A stretch of DNA of 51,874 bases from a phage. The notes under the pieces are model-generated. The model worked only from the letters and a program-made list of their open reading frames with translations, searched no databases and was not told the origin of the DNA. The stretch lies in the sequence record PZ386979.1; one strand, given 5' to 3'. The number at the start of each line of letters is the position of its first letter. The stretch's first letter is position 1. The translations under genes were made by a program, and so were the position numbers. Of the stretch, positions 7,746-13,462 are shown in pieces.

Positions 7746-8162
7746 ATGGTTGATGAATTTTTCACTGACGCAGAAATCACGCAGCAAATCGTGAAATTAG
7801 CGCCACCGATGAAACAGATTGATCCAGATTTAATGGTGGCATGGATTGATCTGGCAAAGGAATTTGTTTGCAAGAAGCGGTTTAAAGAATCATATCCTAA
7901 AGCGGTTGCTCTTTATACGTTGCACCTTATGACGCTTGACGGAGCTATGAAGCAAGAGGGGGAAAGCGTAGAGAGTTACTCACGGCGCGTGGCGTCATTT
8001 TCCCTGACTGGTGAATTTAGCCAGACATTTGATCGCGTGTCCGGCGATTCAAGCGGAAAAGAGATCAGGCAAACCCCGTGGGGTAAAATGTATGAGACGT
8101 TAAATAGAAAAAAAGGCGGTGGATTTGGCCTTGTGACTGGATTTCGGAGGCGCTGCAAATGA
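7746..8162 (+). CDS. head-tail connector protein (putative)
   Basis: 138 aa; RBS GGAGGAAACACA; position between capsid and tail genes. Confidence 0.4.
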
Positions 8163-8530
8163 ACTATAACGAGATCGCAAGAATGGCAACCGAAGGAATT
8201 AACTTCTTTAGTGATAGCGACGGTGAGTTTAAGTGCATAACGCAGCGTGGAAGCGTTGAAATCATCGGAGGCGAAGAAGTAGAAAAGCCAGAGATTAGTG
8301 TAATGATTAAGGGTTTAATTAGATCACCCAAAGTCCGAGAGGTTGACGGCGAGACAATACGAGTAACCGATAAGTTGGGAGTTTTTAACAATAAAGTTGA
8401 AATTAAGAACGGGTATCATATTGATGTTGATGGTGAATTATATGTTGTAGTTGAAGCAAGACCAATCAGACAAACCAATGTCACAGTTGCTTATCGGCCT
8501 ATTTTGAGAAGGATTTCCGTGCATGGCTAA
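8159..8530 (+). CDS. head-tail joining protein (putative)
   Basis: 123 aa; start overlaps upstream stop (ATGA). Confidence 0.4.
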
Positions 8531-9359: not shown

Positions 9360-10022
9360 ATGCATTTACCAAATGGATCGCAAATTTTCGTTGAGAGCAA
9401 TCGCGGAAGCGAAATCCAAGCAACAGCAGTGTCAAACGCCAAAGATCCTGTTTTCACTGTTGCATCTGGCGGCACTGCGTACAAGAAAGGTGATTATGTG
9501 ATCATCACTGCGTCTTCTTGGGGTAAGCTGATTGATCGTGTTATGCGTGTAAAGGCTAACGGTGAAGAAACAAGCGTGACTCTTGAAGGTGTAGATACTA
9601 CTGATCAGAACGTTTTCCCGACTGGCGGTACTGCATCTTTTGCCAAAATTGATGCATGGACTGAGATCCCTTGCGTTCAGGATTTGTCGCAGGACGGCGG
9701 CGAACAGCAATACTACACTTATCAGTGTTTGGCAGACGATCAGGAACAGCAGTTACCTACCTATAAGAGCGCCGTTTCTCTTACCTACACTTTTGCGCAC
9801 GAATACGATAACGCGATCTATCCGCTATTGCGTTCAGCAGATGAATCAGGCGCTGTAACGGCGCTTCGCATGTATGTACCAAAAGCAAAAGAGATGCGTT
9901 GCTGGGCTGGTGTCCTTTCGTTTAACGAAATCCCGCAGACCACAGTTAACGAAATGGAAACCGTTTCCCTGTCTGTATCCCTGAAAGGTCGATTCACCTT
10001 CCTACCTTCTCAAGTAGCATAA
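9360..10022 (+). CDS. major tail protein (putative)
   Basis: 220 aa; followed by strong terminator GGGGCGTTGCGCCCC plus T-run; precedes tail chaperone genes. Confidence 0.55.
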   Translation: MHLPNGSQIFVESNRGSEIQATAVSNAKDPVFTVASGGTAYKKGDYVIITASSWGKLIDRVMRVKANGEETSVTLEGVDTTDQNVFPTGGTASFAKIDAWTEIPCVQDLSQDGGEQQYYTYQCLADDQEQQLPTYKSAVSLTYTFAHEYDNAIYPLLRSADESGAVTALRMYVPKAKEMRCWAGVLSFNEIPQTTVNEMETVSLSVSLKGRFTFLPSQVA

Positions 10023-10028
10023 TCACAA

Positions 10029-10051
10029 GGGGCGTTGCGCCCCTTTTTTTG
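10029..10051 (+). terminator. rho-independent terminator after major tail gene
   Basis: GGGGCG-ttg-CGCCCC followed by TTTTTTT. Confidence 0.7.
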
Positions 10052-10063
10052 TTACTGTACAAT
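10035..10063 (+). promoter_or_regulatory. sigma70-like promoter overlapping terminator (TTGCGC-17-TACAAT)
   Basis: -35-like TTGCGC 10035..10040 within terminator stem, -10 TACAAT 10058..10063; would drive tail chaperone genes. Confidence 0.35.
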
Positions 10064-10089
10064 CATGCTACACGATTCATAATCAATTC

Positions 10090-10108
10090 TTTTAACAAAA
10101 AGTGCTAT
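10090..10108 (-). promoter_or_regulatory. conserved element in inverse orientation in tail chaperone leader
   Basis: Plus strand TTTTAACAAAAAGTGCTAT directly upstream of RBS of 10122 gene; 6 nt after CATAAT (10078..10083). Confidence 0.4.
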
Positions 10109-10121
10109 CAAGGAGAAAGAA

Positions 10122-10439
10122 ATGTCAAAAATGAAATTGACGATTGGGCCGCTTCCTGACTTTAAATTACCAGTGAAATTTGCAATGCCTAACGGAGAAG
10201 ATCAAACAATTATCTTCACAGTTCGCCACCGCAAAACAAGTGAGATTCACGAGCGCTACACGTCAGATACTCCAATGAGCGATGTTGAAATGATCACCTT
10301 CCTTGCTTCAGGTTGGAATCTTGATGATGAATTTAACGAAGAAAATATTAAACAGCTTCTTGATTACTACCCAGCAACAGCAATCGGATTAACTAGCGCA
10401 TACATGAAAGCGCTTGCGGGGCAGCGAGTAAAAAACTAA
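10122..10439 (+). CDS. tail assembly chaperone (lambda G-like)
   Basis: 105 aa; AGGAG RBS; ends ...QRVKN with slippery heptamer A_AAA_AAC immediately before TAA; directly upstream of tape measure gene. Confidence 0.7.
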   Translation: MSKMKLTIGPLPDFKLPVKFAMPNGEDQTIIFTVRHRKTSEIHERYTSDTPMSDVEMITFLASGWNLDDEFNEENIKQLLDYYPATAIGLTSAYMKALAGQRVKN

Positions 10440-10750
10440 AAAGGGCGGTTTACCTGTTTTATCAGAAACCGCCGACAGATGCAGAGCTTGAGGCCGTTGG
10501 CCTTACAAGGGCAGACTATGAAGGAGAAGATCCGCCAGAGGTTATATTTGATGAAAGCATGATGCAATCATGGGATATATTTTGCGCAATGAAAACGCAA
10601 TGGAGATGTTCTGGCGGTGGCGCTTACGGATTTGATTATAATGTCTTGCCTATGCTTTTTGAGATTTACAAGGTTGAGGATCGCGAGATGGCGCTAAACG
10701 ACTTGCGAATCATGGAGCAAAAAGCACTTGAAATGATGCATTCAAAATAA
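10122..10750 (+). CDS. tail assembly chaperone frameshift fusion (lambda GT-like, -1 PRF at 10430..10436)
   Basis: -1 frame is open from 10397 to stop at 10748..10750 and overlaps the 0-frame end; slippery AAAAAAC at 10430..10436. Confidence 0.55.
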
Positions 10751-10773
10751 GCGCCTACGGGCGCTTTTTTATT
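10749..10773 (+). terminator. hairpin plus T-run between GT and tape measure
   Basis: GCGCC-tacg-GGCGC then TTTTTT; possibly attenuating. Confidence 0.45.
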
Positions 10774-10789
10774 ACCTGGAGGATTAATA

Positions 10790-13462
10790 ATGTCAGAACA
10801 ATACGCAGGTTTGACGCTTGGGGTTGACGTTTCTCAACTCAACAATGCTGTAAAGTCTTTGCAGCAATTCAAGAAGGCAAACGACGACGCAAAGGGGAGC
10901 GTTGAGAGTTTTGTTGATTCAGAGGTTGTTGCAAGACAAAGAGCCAAACAACTGGCTGAGGAATTGGCAAAGCAGAAGCAAGAATTTAAAGCAATTCAGT
11001 CGGCAATAGATCCGACAGCAAGCAAAATGGATAAGTTGCGCCAGGCTGCGACACAGCTTGATGCGCTTTGGAAAAAAGGAATTGTGCCGGATGATACATT
11101 CTTTGAGTTAGGATCAATTCTTGAGACGCAGCAAAACAAACTGATCGCAACTAAAAAGGCGCTAACTGAAGAAGGTCGCGCGGCGCTTGAGGAAGCAAAG
11201 AATAAAGCCAGGGCAGAGGCTGAGGCCAGAAAGTTCATTGCGGCATTGCAGGCGCAAGCTGAAGCAGCCGGAAAAAGCAAGTCTGAATTGCTGGAAATGA
11301 AAGCGGCACAGCTTGGAGTTAGCCAAGAGGCGGCGCCTTACATCGCAAGACTGAAAGAGCAGGAAAAGCAGATTCAAAAACTTGGGATTTCTATGGGGCA
11401 GTACAAGCAAGCAATGGCGCAATTGCCAATGCAGATCACTGACGTTGTTACTTCTCTTGCTTCAGGTATGCCAGTATGGTTGATCGCAATCCAGCAGGGC
11501 GGGCAAATCAAGGACTCATTTGGCGGTGTTGCTAACACGTTTAAAGCGCTAATGACATTTGTCACGCCTTTAAGTGTAGGAATGACGGCGCTGACTGGTG
11601 CGCTTGGTTATGCTGCATATAATGCATACAAAGCAAATGCGCAACTGAAGGAGATCACAAAAACCGTTCAGGAGGCAACTGGTCTTTCTGGTGATTTTGC
11701 GGAGCGGATTGCAACTGGAATCCAGGCGCTATCTGACAAGACAGGTGAGAGCGCCGACAATCTGGCAAAGGCATACATAAGCACTAAGGATGGAGCAACC
11801 GAGGCCATACAAAAACTAGTCGATGTTGGATTTACCTATGACGAAGCAAAGGCAAAAGTAAACGAATACAAAAACGCATCAAGTTTTGTAAGTCTTAACA
11901 ATGAAATTGCTGATCACAAAAACAAAGTTCTTGAGCTTGGCGATTCATGGTATGCGGTCTTAAAAGCAAAACGTGATTATGCTTCACCGTCCGGCGGGCT
12001 GTTGGGGAAAGAGCTTGGTTATGTGAATCCAATGCTGCAATTTGCGAAGAACACCTATGAGGATATAGGAAAGATTGTAAAAGATGCGAATAAGGATATG
12101 GCGGAACGAGCAGCACGCATCGACAGAGAAAACCTTTCCTTAAACAGAGTTCGAGCGGCGCAAGAGGCTTTAAACAAAGCCATAGAGGATCAGAAGAACG
12201 TAGCAAGGACAGCAGACGAAGAGTTGAAGAAGCGCGCGGCTGAGAACGTGGAGTTCAGGCGAAAAGAGCTTGAAGAGGCGAAGAAGGCGCAGCAGCAAAA
12301 GGAAAAAGTTGGTGGAGTTGTAAAAGCACCAACAGAGCAGCTTGATAAGGAGCTATATGTTCTCAAGGCGCAACTTGAAACGCTGAAAGAGCACAGAACT
12401 GTAAATGATGTTATTTCACGCCAGAGGAAATCTTTGTGGAGCATTGAAAAGCAGATCCAGATCCTTGAGGAAGCGCAAAGTAAACGAAAGCTGACAAAAG
12501 CGGAACAGGCGTTACTAAACGAGCAAAAAGCAGTTATTGCTATGGCAAAAGAAAAGGCAGAGATAGGCGATCAGATTGTTTTGCAACAGAGAAAGAACAA
12601 GCAATACCAGGAAGGGATTAAATTCATTCAGCAAACATCAGATGCTATTGACGCTATGAACTTGCGACAGTCTGGAGCTACAGATCTGCAAATCCAGCGA
12701 GAGCTTGAGTTGAAGAAGTTGCGAACTGATTATGTTGCTGGCGGCGGTAGTATCGACGATGAAATTTATCAGCAGATGGAAGCAAAGCTGAAGGAGTATT
12801 ACGCCACTGAGGATCAACTTAGAAATAACTGGATTGCAGGAGCAAAGAACGCATGGGAGGTTTACGGACAAGATGCAATGGATATGTACGGCAACGTGCA
12901 AGATATTGCAAGCGAGGCGCTCAACGGTCTAACCAACCAAATGGCTACATTCCTTGCAACAGGTAAGGCAAATTTTAAGAGCTTCGCAACGTCAATCATC
13001 CAAATGATTATTCAGATGATCACAAAGATGGTTATCTTTAATGCCATATCTGGTGCGATTGGCGGTGACACTTGGACGATTGGAAGCCTTCTTAAAAATG
13101 TTGGATTTGCAACTGGTGGATACACTGGAGACGGCGGCAAGTATGAGCCAGCAGGTGTTGTTCATAAAGGCGAGTTTGTCATGACTAAGGAGGCCACGAA
13201 GCGGATCGGAGTTGGAAATCTTTACAAAATGATGCGCGGTTATGCAAATGGCGGCGTTGTTGGTGGATCTTCATACACTGGCGGCGGCGTTTCATCTGGA
13301 GCCACAAATCTTAATATTGGCGGGATCAGCGTTGATATTAACAACGGAAGCGATCCGAAAGGGTTGGAGACTGGCGTAAAAATGATTTTCACTGATATGA
13401 TTAAGCGTTCCTGTACGCAGGGTGGGGAAGTTTACGAATTTGTTATGTCTAAGCGGGGGTGA
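10790..13462 (+). CDS. tail tape measure protein
   Basis: 890 aa; long charged alanine-rich helical N-terminal two-thirds, hydrophobic segment ([24 protein letters not shown]), glycine-rich C-terminus; follows G/GT. Confidence 0.85.

What the first reader, a model, noticed from the sequence alone, without database searches (positions are those of the whole stretch)
10397..10750. Programmed -1 ribosomal frameshift site (A_AAA_AAC) giving a G-T-like tail chaperone fusion
The 105-codon chaperone ORF ends ...GTA AAA AAC TAA; heptamer AAAAAAC at 10430..10436 fits X_XXY_YYZ, and the -1 frame is open from 10397 to 10750, ending just before the tape measure gene. This is the conserved lambda G/GT arrangement.
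Basis: partly seen in the sequence, partly recalled or inferred. Interest (0 to 1): 0.5.

Follow-up and report, generated by a model that had tools for sequence, protein, structure and literature searches.

The report
Tail chaperone frameshift in T1-like phage
This is the ordinary, already recognised programmed -1 ribosomal frameshift that lets a T1-like coliphage make a short and a long tail-assembly chaperone from one gene pair; the site is real and strongly conserved, but it is not new.

Summary
A 105-codon ORF (10122..10439, Pfam Phage_TAC_4) ends GTA AAA AAC TAA. The heptamer A_AAA_AAC lies at 10430..10436. The -1 frame is open from 10397 to 10750 and encodes a DUF1799 domain. The pair sits between the tail tube gene and the tape measure gene.

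The window is a T1-like phage (Drexlerviridae, Hanrivervirus), nearly identical to Escherichia phage Fulano1. In every one of the 120 related loci where both parts could be placed and the A run is intact, the downstream part is in the -1 frame. Four more loci have only five A's, which I read as probable assembly errors. Of 70 distinct site contexts, 42 have A_AAA_AAC and 19 have G_GGA_AAC (distant prophages). A stop codon follows the site directly in all 70.

The fourfold-degenerate first base of the heptamer never varies in 45 distinct Drexlerviridae-like contexts. The downstream ORF has no ribosome-binding site, and its conserved domain begins 60 nt before its first ATG.

A hairpin 7 nt downstream is predicted, but only some clades have it and covariation is inconclusive.

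The same frameshift is already annotated and published for the relatives Stevie and Solomon. The nearest GenBank record merely mis-annotates it as two genes. Low interest.

The parts
10110..10115 (+). Shine-Dalgarno sequence AAGGAG, 6 nt before the ATG of the chaperone gene
   Evidence: Read directly from the sequence.
10122..10439 (+). G-like tail assembly chaperone ORF (105 aa, 12.0 kDa), the product of normal 0-frame translation
10430..10436 (+). Slippery heptamer A_AAA_AAC in X_XXY_YYZ register with the 0 frame
   Evidence: It is the only in-frame heptamer in the ORF. A_AAA_AAC or G_GGA_AAC occupies the same place in 61 of 70 distinct homologous contexts. The fourfold-degenerate base 10430 is invariant in 45 distinct Drexlerviridae-like contexts.
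10437..10439 (+). 0-frame stop codon TAA directly abutting the heptamer
   Evidence: A stop (TAA, TGA, or TAG once) directly follows the site in all 70 distinct contexts. The -1-frame Leu third position inside it is only ever A or G.
10444..10473 (+). Predicted stem-loop 7 nt after the heptamer: GGCGGUUU/AAACCGCC plus CUG/CAG, -15.1 kcal/mol. Candidate stimulator, not proven.
   Evidence: z = -3.9 and -3.55 against synonymous recodings. Present in most of the Tempevirinae and Tunavirinae representatives examined and absent in other clades. Covariation is inconclusive.
10436..10750 (+). T-like segment read in the -1 frame (104 codons plus TAA). It has no start signal of its own and contains a DUF1799 domain.
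   Evidence: Pfam PF08809, E 7e-13, matching from residue 22 of this segment (about 10499), which is 60 nt before the first ATG at 10559. No start codon lies in this frame before 10559 and no SD precedes it.
10122..10750 (+). Predicted GT fusion: 209 aa, 24.1 kDa, made of G residues 1-105 followed by LKRAVYL...
   Evidence: PHROG 17368 (213 positions) matches residues 1-208, E 1.3e-101. The homologous joined CDS is annotated in phages Stevie and Solomon.
10559..10750 (+). 63-codon ATG-started ORF, annotated as a separate gene (gp16) in the nearest GenBank record. Judged an annotation artefact.
9360..10022 (+). Major tail (tube) protein gene, upstream neighbour
   Evidence: Pfam PF08813, E 2e-64.
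10790..13462 (+). Tape measure protein gene, downstream neighbour
   Evidence: Pfam PF06791, E 5e-35, and PF09718, E 6.5e-22.
10027..10045 (+). Terminator-like hairpin plus T run between the tube gene and the chaperone gene (context)
   Evidence: Terminators are annotated at the equivalent place in T1 and Stevie.
10749..10766 (+). Terminator-like hairpin plus T run between the end of the T frame and the tape measure gene (context)
   Evidence: Terminators are annotated at the equivalent place in T1, Stevie and Solomon.

Best explanation
Ribosomes start at ATG 10122. Most of them terminate at TAA 10437 and release the 105-aa tail assembly chaperone, the G analogue.

A minority slip back one nucleotide on A_AAA_AAC. 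The P-site tRNA-Lys re-pairs from AAA (10431-10433) to AAA (10430-10432). The A-site tRNA-Asn re-pairs from AAC (10434-10436) to AAA (10433-10435). Decoding resumes at CUA (10436) and runs to 10750. This yields a 209-aa fusion, the GT analogue, whose C-terminal half is a DUF1799 domain.

By analogy with lambda, the shared N-terminal part would coat the tape measure protein and the extension would recruit tail tube subunits. The low slip rate would fix a high G:GT ratio.

What is shown here: the sequence anatomy, the family assignments and the comparative conservation. What is inferred: the slip itself, its rate, any role of the adjacent stop codon or the predicted hairpin, and the protein interactions.
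For: 1. Anatomy: heptamer in register, -1 frame open for 104 codons, chance about 8e-5.
2. Domains and neighbours: Phage_TAC_4 followed by DUF1799, lying between the tube and tape measure genes, which are followed by lambda M/L/K/I-like genes. A single PHROG profile spans the fusion.
3. No independent start. The first in-frame start codon is ATG 10559, and no SD precedes it. The real neighbouring genes have AAGGAG or GGAGG. The DUF1799 match and strongly conserved residues (LKRAVYL..QKPPTD..) lie upstream of that ATG.
4. Comparative data: both parts could be placed in 125 of 133 related loci, and the T part is in the -1 frame of G in 120 of them. Four of the other five (L017, L022, L053, L056) have five A's, which are probable assembly errors. 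In the fifth (L074) the heptamer and TAA are intact and only the G match was misplaced.
5. Site conservation across 70 distinct contexts: A_AAA_AAC 42, G_GGA_AAC 19. The three X positions change together (AAA to GGG).
6. Base 10430 is a fourfold-degenerate third position. Its entropy is 0 bits across 45 sequences, against 1.6-1.96 bits at the four preceding third positions.
7. C 10436 could change to T without altering either product (AAC/AAT, CTA/TTA), yet it is C in 66 of 70 contexts.
8. Third-position variability follows the -1 frame immediately after the site.
9. The homologous joined CDS is annotated in Stevie and Solomon and mentioned in their genome announcements.
10. A_AAA_AAC is a weak shift site in E. 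coli (PMC5009743, PMC4066793). This fits a need for a minor product, as with lambda's 30:1 ratio.
Against: - There is no experimental evidence for this phage or, in the papers I could search, for any T1-like phage.
- Bacterial ribosomes tolerate the AAC-to-AAA re-pairing poorly (PMC4066793), so efficiency may be very low without a stimulator.
- The candidate hairpin is absent from several clades that keep the heptamer, and its covariation score is no better than a slid control.
- Nine of the 70 contexts lack a canonical heptamer while keeping the -1 arrangement. The heptamer is therefore not strictly indispensable in this family.
Confidence: 0.9

Rival explanations
1. The downstream ORF is a separate gene translated from its own ATG at 10559 (63 aa), as annotated in the Fulano1, Henu8 and many other records. 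The heptamer is incidental.
For: Most database records annotate two separate CDS. An ATG exists at 10559.
Against: - No SD-like sequence precedes 10559.
- The annotated start differs between relatives.
- The DUF1799 match begins 20 residues upstream of that ATG. The 41 residues before it are among the best conserved in the fusion.
- Third-position variability follows the -1 frame from the heptamer onward.
- The heptamer and the frame relation are kept down to about 25% identity.
Confidence: 0.04
2. The fusion arises by transcriptional slippage. RNA polymerase inserts an extra A in the A6 run, giving an mRNA in which G and T are in one frame.
For: The site contains a run of six A's. An extra A would give the same reading frame and almost the same protein (VKK-LKR).
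Against: - From general knowledge, efficient slippage by bacterial RNA polymerase needs longer runs, typically 9 or more.
- The homologous site in 19 distant contexts is G_GGA_AAC, which is not a homopolymer but is a canonical ribosomal heptamer.
- The register-specific conservation of X_XXY_YYZ relative to the 0 frame is not required for polymerase slippage.
Confidence: 0.04
3. The product is the same but the trigger differs. The slip is a single P-site event by tRNA-Asn on AAC while the slowly decoded stop codon waits in the A site (a 'shifty stop'), rather than a tandem slip of two tRNAs.
For: The stop codon directly follows the site in all 70 contexts. It is maintained at a -1-frame fourfold site that shows only A or G. 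Stop codons next to shift sites are known stimulators in other systems (PMC5009743).
Against: A single-tRNA slip would not require the first three bases of the heptamer. Yet these are invariant or change together (AAA to GGG), including a fourfold-degenerate base.
Confidence: 0.12
4. The split is an assembly or sequencing error in a homopolymer, or a pseudogene. The real gene is a single uninterrupted ORF.
For: Four IMG/VR contigs show a different A-run length, five A's. This shows that errors do occur at this run.
Against: - The same two-frame arrangement with six A's, or with GGGAAAC, recurs in 120 independently sequenced loci from many genera.
- Called homologues of the short protein are 103-105 aa throughout.
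- None of the 125 loci in which both parts could be placed encodes an uninterrupted in-frame fusion.
Confidence: 0.01

Closest known systems
Tape measure chaperone frameshift annotated in the T1-like phages Citrobacter phage Stevie (KM236241) and Klebsiella phage Solomon (MT701592)
   Same: Homologous genes (48-73% protein identity over the fusion) in the same position. Identical A_AAA_AAC TAA site. A joined CDS is annotated and mentioned in the announcements (PMC4319613, PMC8407766).
   Different: Nothing of substance. The record nearest to this window (Fulano1) and most other Drexlerviridae records annotate two separate CDS instead.
Bacteriophage lambda G/GT
   Same: Two overlapping ORFs between the tube gene (V) and the tape measure gene (H). 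The second ORF is in the -1 frame, has no start of its own, and is reached from an X_XXY_YYZ heptamer near the end of the first ORF. Low-level shifting sets the ratio of the two products (PMC5009743).
   Different: - The heptamer is G_GGA_AAG rather than A_AAA_AAC.
- The lambda stop lies 15 nt after the heptamer, not directly adjacent.
- The proteins belong to different Pfam families (PF06894 and PF06223, against PF08748 and PF08809). No profile similarity is detectable.
IS1 InsAB' frameshift (the A_AAA_AAC IS cluster in PMC4066793; its identification as IS1 is from my own knowledge)
   Same: The same heptamer works in E. coli at low efficiency to fuse two overlapping ORFs. No stimulator has been established.
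   Different: It is a transposase, not a virion assembly factor, and the proteins are unrelated.
E. coli dnaX programmed -1 frameshift
   Same: The A-rich heptamer is decoded by tRNA-Lys. A downstream hairpin sits at a short spacing.
   Different: dnaX uses the much shiftier A_AAA_AAG, plus an upstream SD-like element, and shifts about half the ribosomes (PMC5009743). Here no conserved SD-like element is present and the hairpin is only predicted.

Membership tests
G/GT-type tail assembly chaperone pair expressed by programmed -1 frameshift | Two overlapping ORFs located between the major tail (tube) gene and the tape measure gene | tested here: met
   PF08813 tube gene at 9360..10022 and PF06791/PF09718 tape measure gene at 10790..13462 flank 10122..10750.
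G/GT-type tail assembly chaperone pair expressed by programmed -1 frameshift | The second ORF is in the -1 frame and lacks its own start codon and ribosome-binding site near its beginning | tested here: met
   The -1 frame is open over 10397..10750. The first start codon is at 10559, with no SD.
G/GT-type tail assembly chaperone pair expressed by programmed -1 frameshift | An X_XXY_YYZ slippery heptamer in 0-frame register within the overlap | tested here: met
   A_AAA_AAC at 10430..10436, the only one in the ORF.
G/GT-type tail assembly chaperone pair expressed by programmed -1 frameshift | Slippery site and frame relation conserved among relatives beyond what coding requires | tested here: met
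   The -1 relation holds in 120 loci. A canonical heptamer is present in 61 of 70 distinct contexts. A synonymous site is invariant, and AAA changes together with GGG.
G/GT-type tail assembly chaperone pair expressed by programmed -1 frameshift | Both the short and the long product are made in a fixed ratio, both are needed for tail assembly, and neither is in the virion | not testable with these tools
   This needs protein analysis and genetics. No such data for T1-like phages turned up in the searches.
Pfam PF08748 Phage_TAC_4 (T1 gp40-like) | Score above the Pfam gathering threshold over the full domain | tested here: met
   109.3 bits against a cut-off of 21.1; residues 1-105 match profile positions 1-124 of 124.
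Pfam PF08809 DUF1799 (TLS TfmB-like) | Score above the Pfam gathering threshold over the full domain | tested here: met
   49 bits against a cut-off of 26; profile positions 2-80 of 80.
Lambda gpG (PF06894) and gpT (PF06223) sequence families | Detectable sequence or profile similarity to lambda G or T | tested here: not met
   No Pfam hit to these families. hhalign of the 12-sequence profile against lambda GT gives probability 0.4%.
Tail assembly chaperone fold (HK97 gp13, YqbN, Rbstp2171) | Structural similarity of the N-terminal domain to solved chaperones | tested here: inconclusive
Transcriptional slippage sites | A long homopolymeric A or T run, conserved as a run | tested here: not met
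   There are only six A's. The homologous site in 19 contexts is GGGAAAC.
Stimulated -1 frameshift cassettes (heptamer plus 3' structure at 5-9 nt) | A conserved downstream stem-loop or pseudoknot supported by covariation | tested here: inconclusive
   The hairpin at 10444..10473 has a 7-nt spacer and z of -3.6 to -3.9 against synonymous recodings. It is absent in several clades, and its covariation score (0.127) equals that of a slid control (0.130). Rfam gives no match.

The most novel reading that the evidence does not exclude
The PF08748/DUF1799 chaperone family may use a distinct 'stop-abutted' frameshift cassette. In this reading the 0-frame stop codon directly 3' of the heptamer is itself a functional part of the signal. 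It is kept in all 70 contexts, from coliphages to Burkholderiales prophages, at a site that is synonymous in the -1 frame. Clades would then tune efficiency in different ways: a hairpin 6-7 nt downstream in Tempevirinae and Tunavirinae, or heptamer-less A_AAG_G or A_AAA_G sites in some Rogunavirinae and Webervirus.
Probability: 0.25. Interest if true: 0.3.

Novelty: already known. Interest (0 to 1): 0.15.

Why it matters
- Annotation. The nearest record (Fulano1, gp15 and gp16) and most Drexlerviridae records list two unrelated small genes, often named 'hypothetical protein' or 'tail length tape measure protein'. They should list a chaperone and its frameshift product.
- Tail assembly. By analogy with lambda, the ratio of the two isoforms is probably critical for building tails of the correct length, so the site matters for engineering T1-like phages.
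- Host defence. A recent preprint reports that a bacterial Avs17 sensor recognises the N-terminal core shared by both chaperone isoforms (10.64898/2026.01.04.697583).

None of this changes current understanding.

Tried and rejected
- A protein search with the 209-aa fusion returned only two hits, both -1-frame ORF calls. It said nothing about annotated fusions.
The T-part model built from three sequences had pLDDT 58 and was not used for fold search.
- A PDB sequence search with the family profile found nothing.
- An Rfam scan of 10000..10900 gave only two sub-threshold chance hits at the terminators.
- Covariation counting on the hairpin gave no signal beyond controls.
- I looked for an upstream SD-like stimulator. 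The GGGG at 10418..10421 is only a Gly codon plus variable third positions in relatives, so I rejected it.
- My first z-scores for the GC-rich prophage hairpins were inflated by uniform codon weights. Redone with each gene's own codons, the mean z is only -1.5.
- The Xu, Hendrix and Duda 2004 paper is not in the held library, so I could not check whether T1 was in their original list.
- I first wrote the junction as VKK-LKR. Under tandem slippage the A-site tRNA is tRNA-Asn, so VKN-LKR is expected. This one residue does not affect any search result.

Full report
**What is in the sequence**

The ORF at 10122..10439 is preceded by AAGGAG (10110..10115). It encodes 105 residues and ends GTA AAA AAC TAA. 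AAAAAAC occupies 10430..10436 in X_XXY_YYZ register. The -1 frame is open from 10397 to the TAA at 10748..10750. The +1 frame closes after 19 codons.

In 13 neighbouring structural genes, 8.7% of -1-frame codons are stops. A 104-codon open run therefore has probability about 8e-5, and the longest such run inside those genes is 96 codons. Any in-frame slippery heptamer is rare (30 per 12,548 codons). This is the only one in the ORF.

**Identity of the region**

The window is a T1-like siphophage of Drexlerviridae, Tempevirinae, Hanrivervirus. It is nearly identical to Escherichia phage vB_EcoD_Fulano1. Within 10100..10790 there is a single difference, at 10280.

- The 0-frame product is Pfam Phage_TAC_4 (E 1.8e-31).
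- The -1 extension is DUF1799 (E 7e-13).
- Upstream lies the tail tube gene (PF08813). Downstream lies the tape measure gene (PF06791/PF09718). Lambda M-, L-, K- and I-like genes follow.
- PHROG 17368, a 213-position profile, matches the 209-aa fusion from end to end (E 1.3e-101).

**No independent start for the downstream ORF**

The first start codon in the -1 frame is ATG 10559, and no Shine-Dalgarno sequence precedes it. The DUF1799 match begins about 60 nt upstream of that ATG. The stretch between the shift site and that ATG (LKRAVYL.YQKPPTD.EL...G..R.DYE) is among the most conserved parts of the fusion across Drexlerviridae. Database records place the start of the 'second gene' at different positions.

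**Comparative test**

I collected 133 related loci from GenBank phages, IMG/VR and bacterial genomes. The collection scans were seeded by peptide patterns. The one that can match genomic DNA lies in the chaperone body, not at the shift site.

- Both parts could be placed in 125 loci, and in 120 of them the T part is in the -1 frame of G.
- Four of the other five (L017, L022, L053, L056) have five A's instead of six, which are probable homopolymer errors. In the fifth (L074) the heptamer and TAA are intact and only the G match was misplaced.
- Among 70 distinct site contexts, 42 have A_AAA_AAC. Another 19 have G_GGA_AAC; all 19 are prophages of Pseudomonas, Burkholderiales and relatives at 25-37% identity. 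Nine carry variants.
- The first three heptamer positions change together, AAA to GGG.
- Base 10430 is a fourfold-degenerate third position that is not translated in the -1 frame. It has zero entropy in 45 Drexlerviridae-like sequences. The four preceding third positions have 1.6-1.96 bits.
- C 10436 could become T without changing either protein, yet it is C in 66 of 70 contexts.
- Immediately after the site, variability peaks at -1-frame third positions.

This is the pattern expected if two tRNAs must re-pair in the -1 frame.

**Stop codon**

A stop codon directly follows the site in all 70 contexts: TAA, TGA, or TAG in one variant. Its middle base is the third position of the -1-frame Leu codon, which is fourfold degenerate, yet it is only ever A or G. 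In lambda the stop lies 15 nt downstream. It remains open whether the stop helps the slip or merely fixes the C-terminus of the short product.

**Downstream structure**

A hairpin is predicted at 10444..10473, 7 nt after the heptamer. It has eight plus three base pairs and a free energy of -15.1 kcal/mol.

- Against 200 synonymous recodings that keep the -1-frame protein, z is -3.9 with the phage's codon usage and -3.55 when the gene's own codons are permuted.
- Most of the Tempevirinae and Tunavirinae representatives examined, including T1, keep it. The Rogunavirinae, Braunvirinae and several other representatives do not.
- The covariation score (0.127) equals that of a slid control (0.130).
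- The G_GGA_AAC prophages often have a GC-rich hairpin at 6 nt, but their mean z is only -1.5.

I treat the hairpin as a plausible clade-specific stimulator that is not demonstrated.

**Mechanism**

The best-supported mechanism is tandem -1 slippage on A_AAA_AAC. It would give G(1-105) fused to LKRAVYL..., 209 aa and 24.1 kDa, alongside the 12.0-kDa short product.

A_AAA_AAC is a weak site in E. coli (PMC5009743). Bacterial ribosomes tolerate the AAC-to-AAA re-pairing poorly (PMC4066793). This fits a minor long product, as with lambda's roughly 30:1 ratio.

The rivals are disfavoured by the evidence above:
- independent initiation at 10559;
- transcriptional slippage on six A's;
- sequencing error.

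A P-site slip at the stop codon remains a minor mechanistic alternative.

**Relation to known systems**

The arrangement matches lambda G/GT, but the proteins are not detectably homologous to lambda G or T. They fall in different Pfam families, and hhalign gives a probability of 0.4%.

The same frameshift is annotated as a joined CDS in the T1-like phages Stevie and Solomon and is mentioned in their genome announcements. The finding is therefore already known for this phage family. The Fulano1 record and most relatives simply annotate two separate genes.

**Verdict**

This is a real, well-supported and ordinary tail chaperone frameshift. Interest is low. The only mildly new points are the family-wide stop codon abutting the heptamer, the AAA/GGG switch, the clade-specific hairpin, and the heptamer-less variants in some Webervirus and Rogunavirinae genomes.

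Noticed in passing
L016, L084-L096 (Webervirus); L076-L080 (phiKP26-like Rogunavirinae); L097: These relatives keep the -1 arrangement and the abutting stop but lack the heptamer. They read GCA AAA GTY TAA, GCA AAG GTC TAA or GCA AAG CCC TAA. Only a single-tRNA A_AAA or A_AAG slip is possible there. Solomon, also a Webervirus, keeps A_AAA_AAC.
   Followed up: partly
L104-L128 (prophages in Pseudomonas, Paraburkholderia, Ramlibacter, Neisseria and others): Distant homologues (25-37% identity) carry G_GGA_AAC TGA at exactly the same position. A GC-rich hairpin often starts 6 nt downstream.
   Followed up: partly
L017, L022, L053, L056 (IMG/VR contigs): The A run has five A's instead of six, which puts the two ORFs in a different frame relation. 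These are probably homopolymer assembly errors.
   Followed up: partly
window 10027..10045 and 10749..10766; promoter-like site 10056..10083: Terminator-like hairpins with T runs bracket the chaperone cassette. One follows the tube gene and one precedes the tape measure gene. T1, Stevie and Solomon annotate terminators at the same places. They may set the transcript ratios of tube, chaperone and tape measure.
   Followed up: partly
window 8108..8114: An in-frame A_AAA_AAA lies near the end of ORF 7746..8162, with the -1 frame running into the next gene (8159..8530). It is not conserved: tuinn has CGT AAG CAC and K50_evo18 has an unrelated sequence. It is most likely chance.
   Followed up: yes
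Hits H38, H39, H48, H92: Records named 'Campylobacter phage A119, A15b, A131, A14a' are 76-94% identical to this T1-like coliphage region. The host labels or the assemblies look doubtful.
   Followed up: no
window 10280: This is the only difference from the Fulano1 record within 10100..10790 (C here, A there). It changes one residue of the chaperone. The window (51,874 bases) is also longer than that record (51,759 bases).
   Followed up: partly
L135 467..841 (phage tuinn): The homologue of window gene 8159..8530, called 'head closure Hc1' in another record, is annotated there as 'ribonucleoside-triphosphate reductase'. This is almost certainly a propagated mis-annotation.
   Followed up: no
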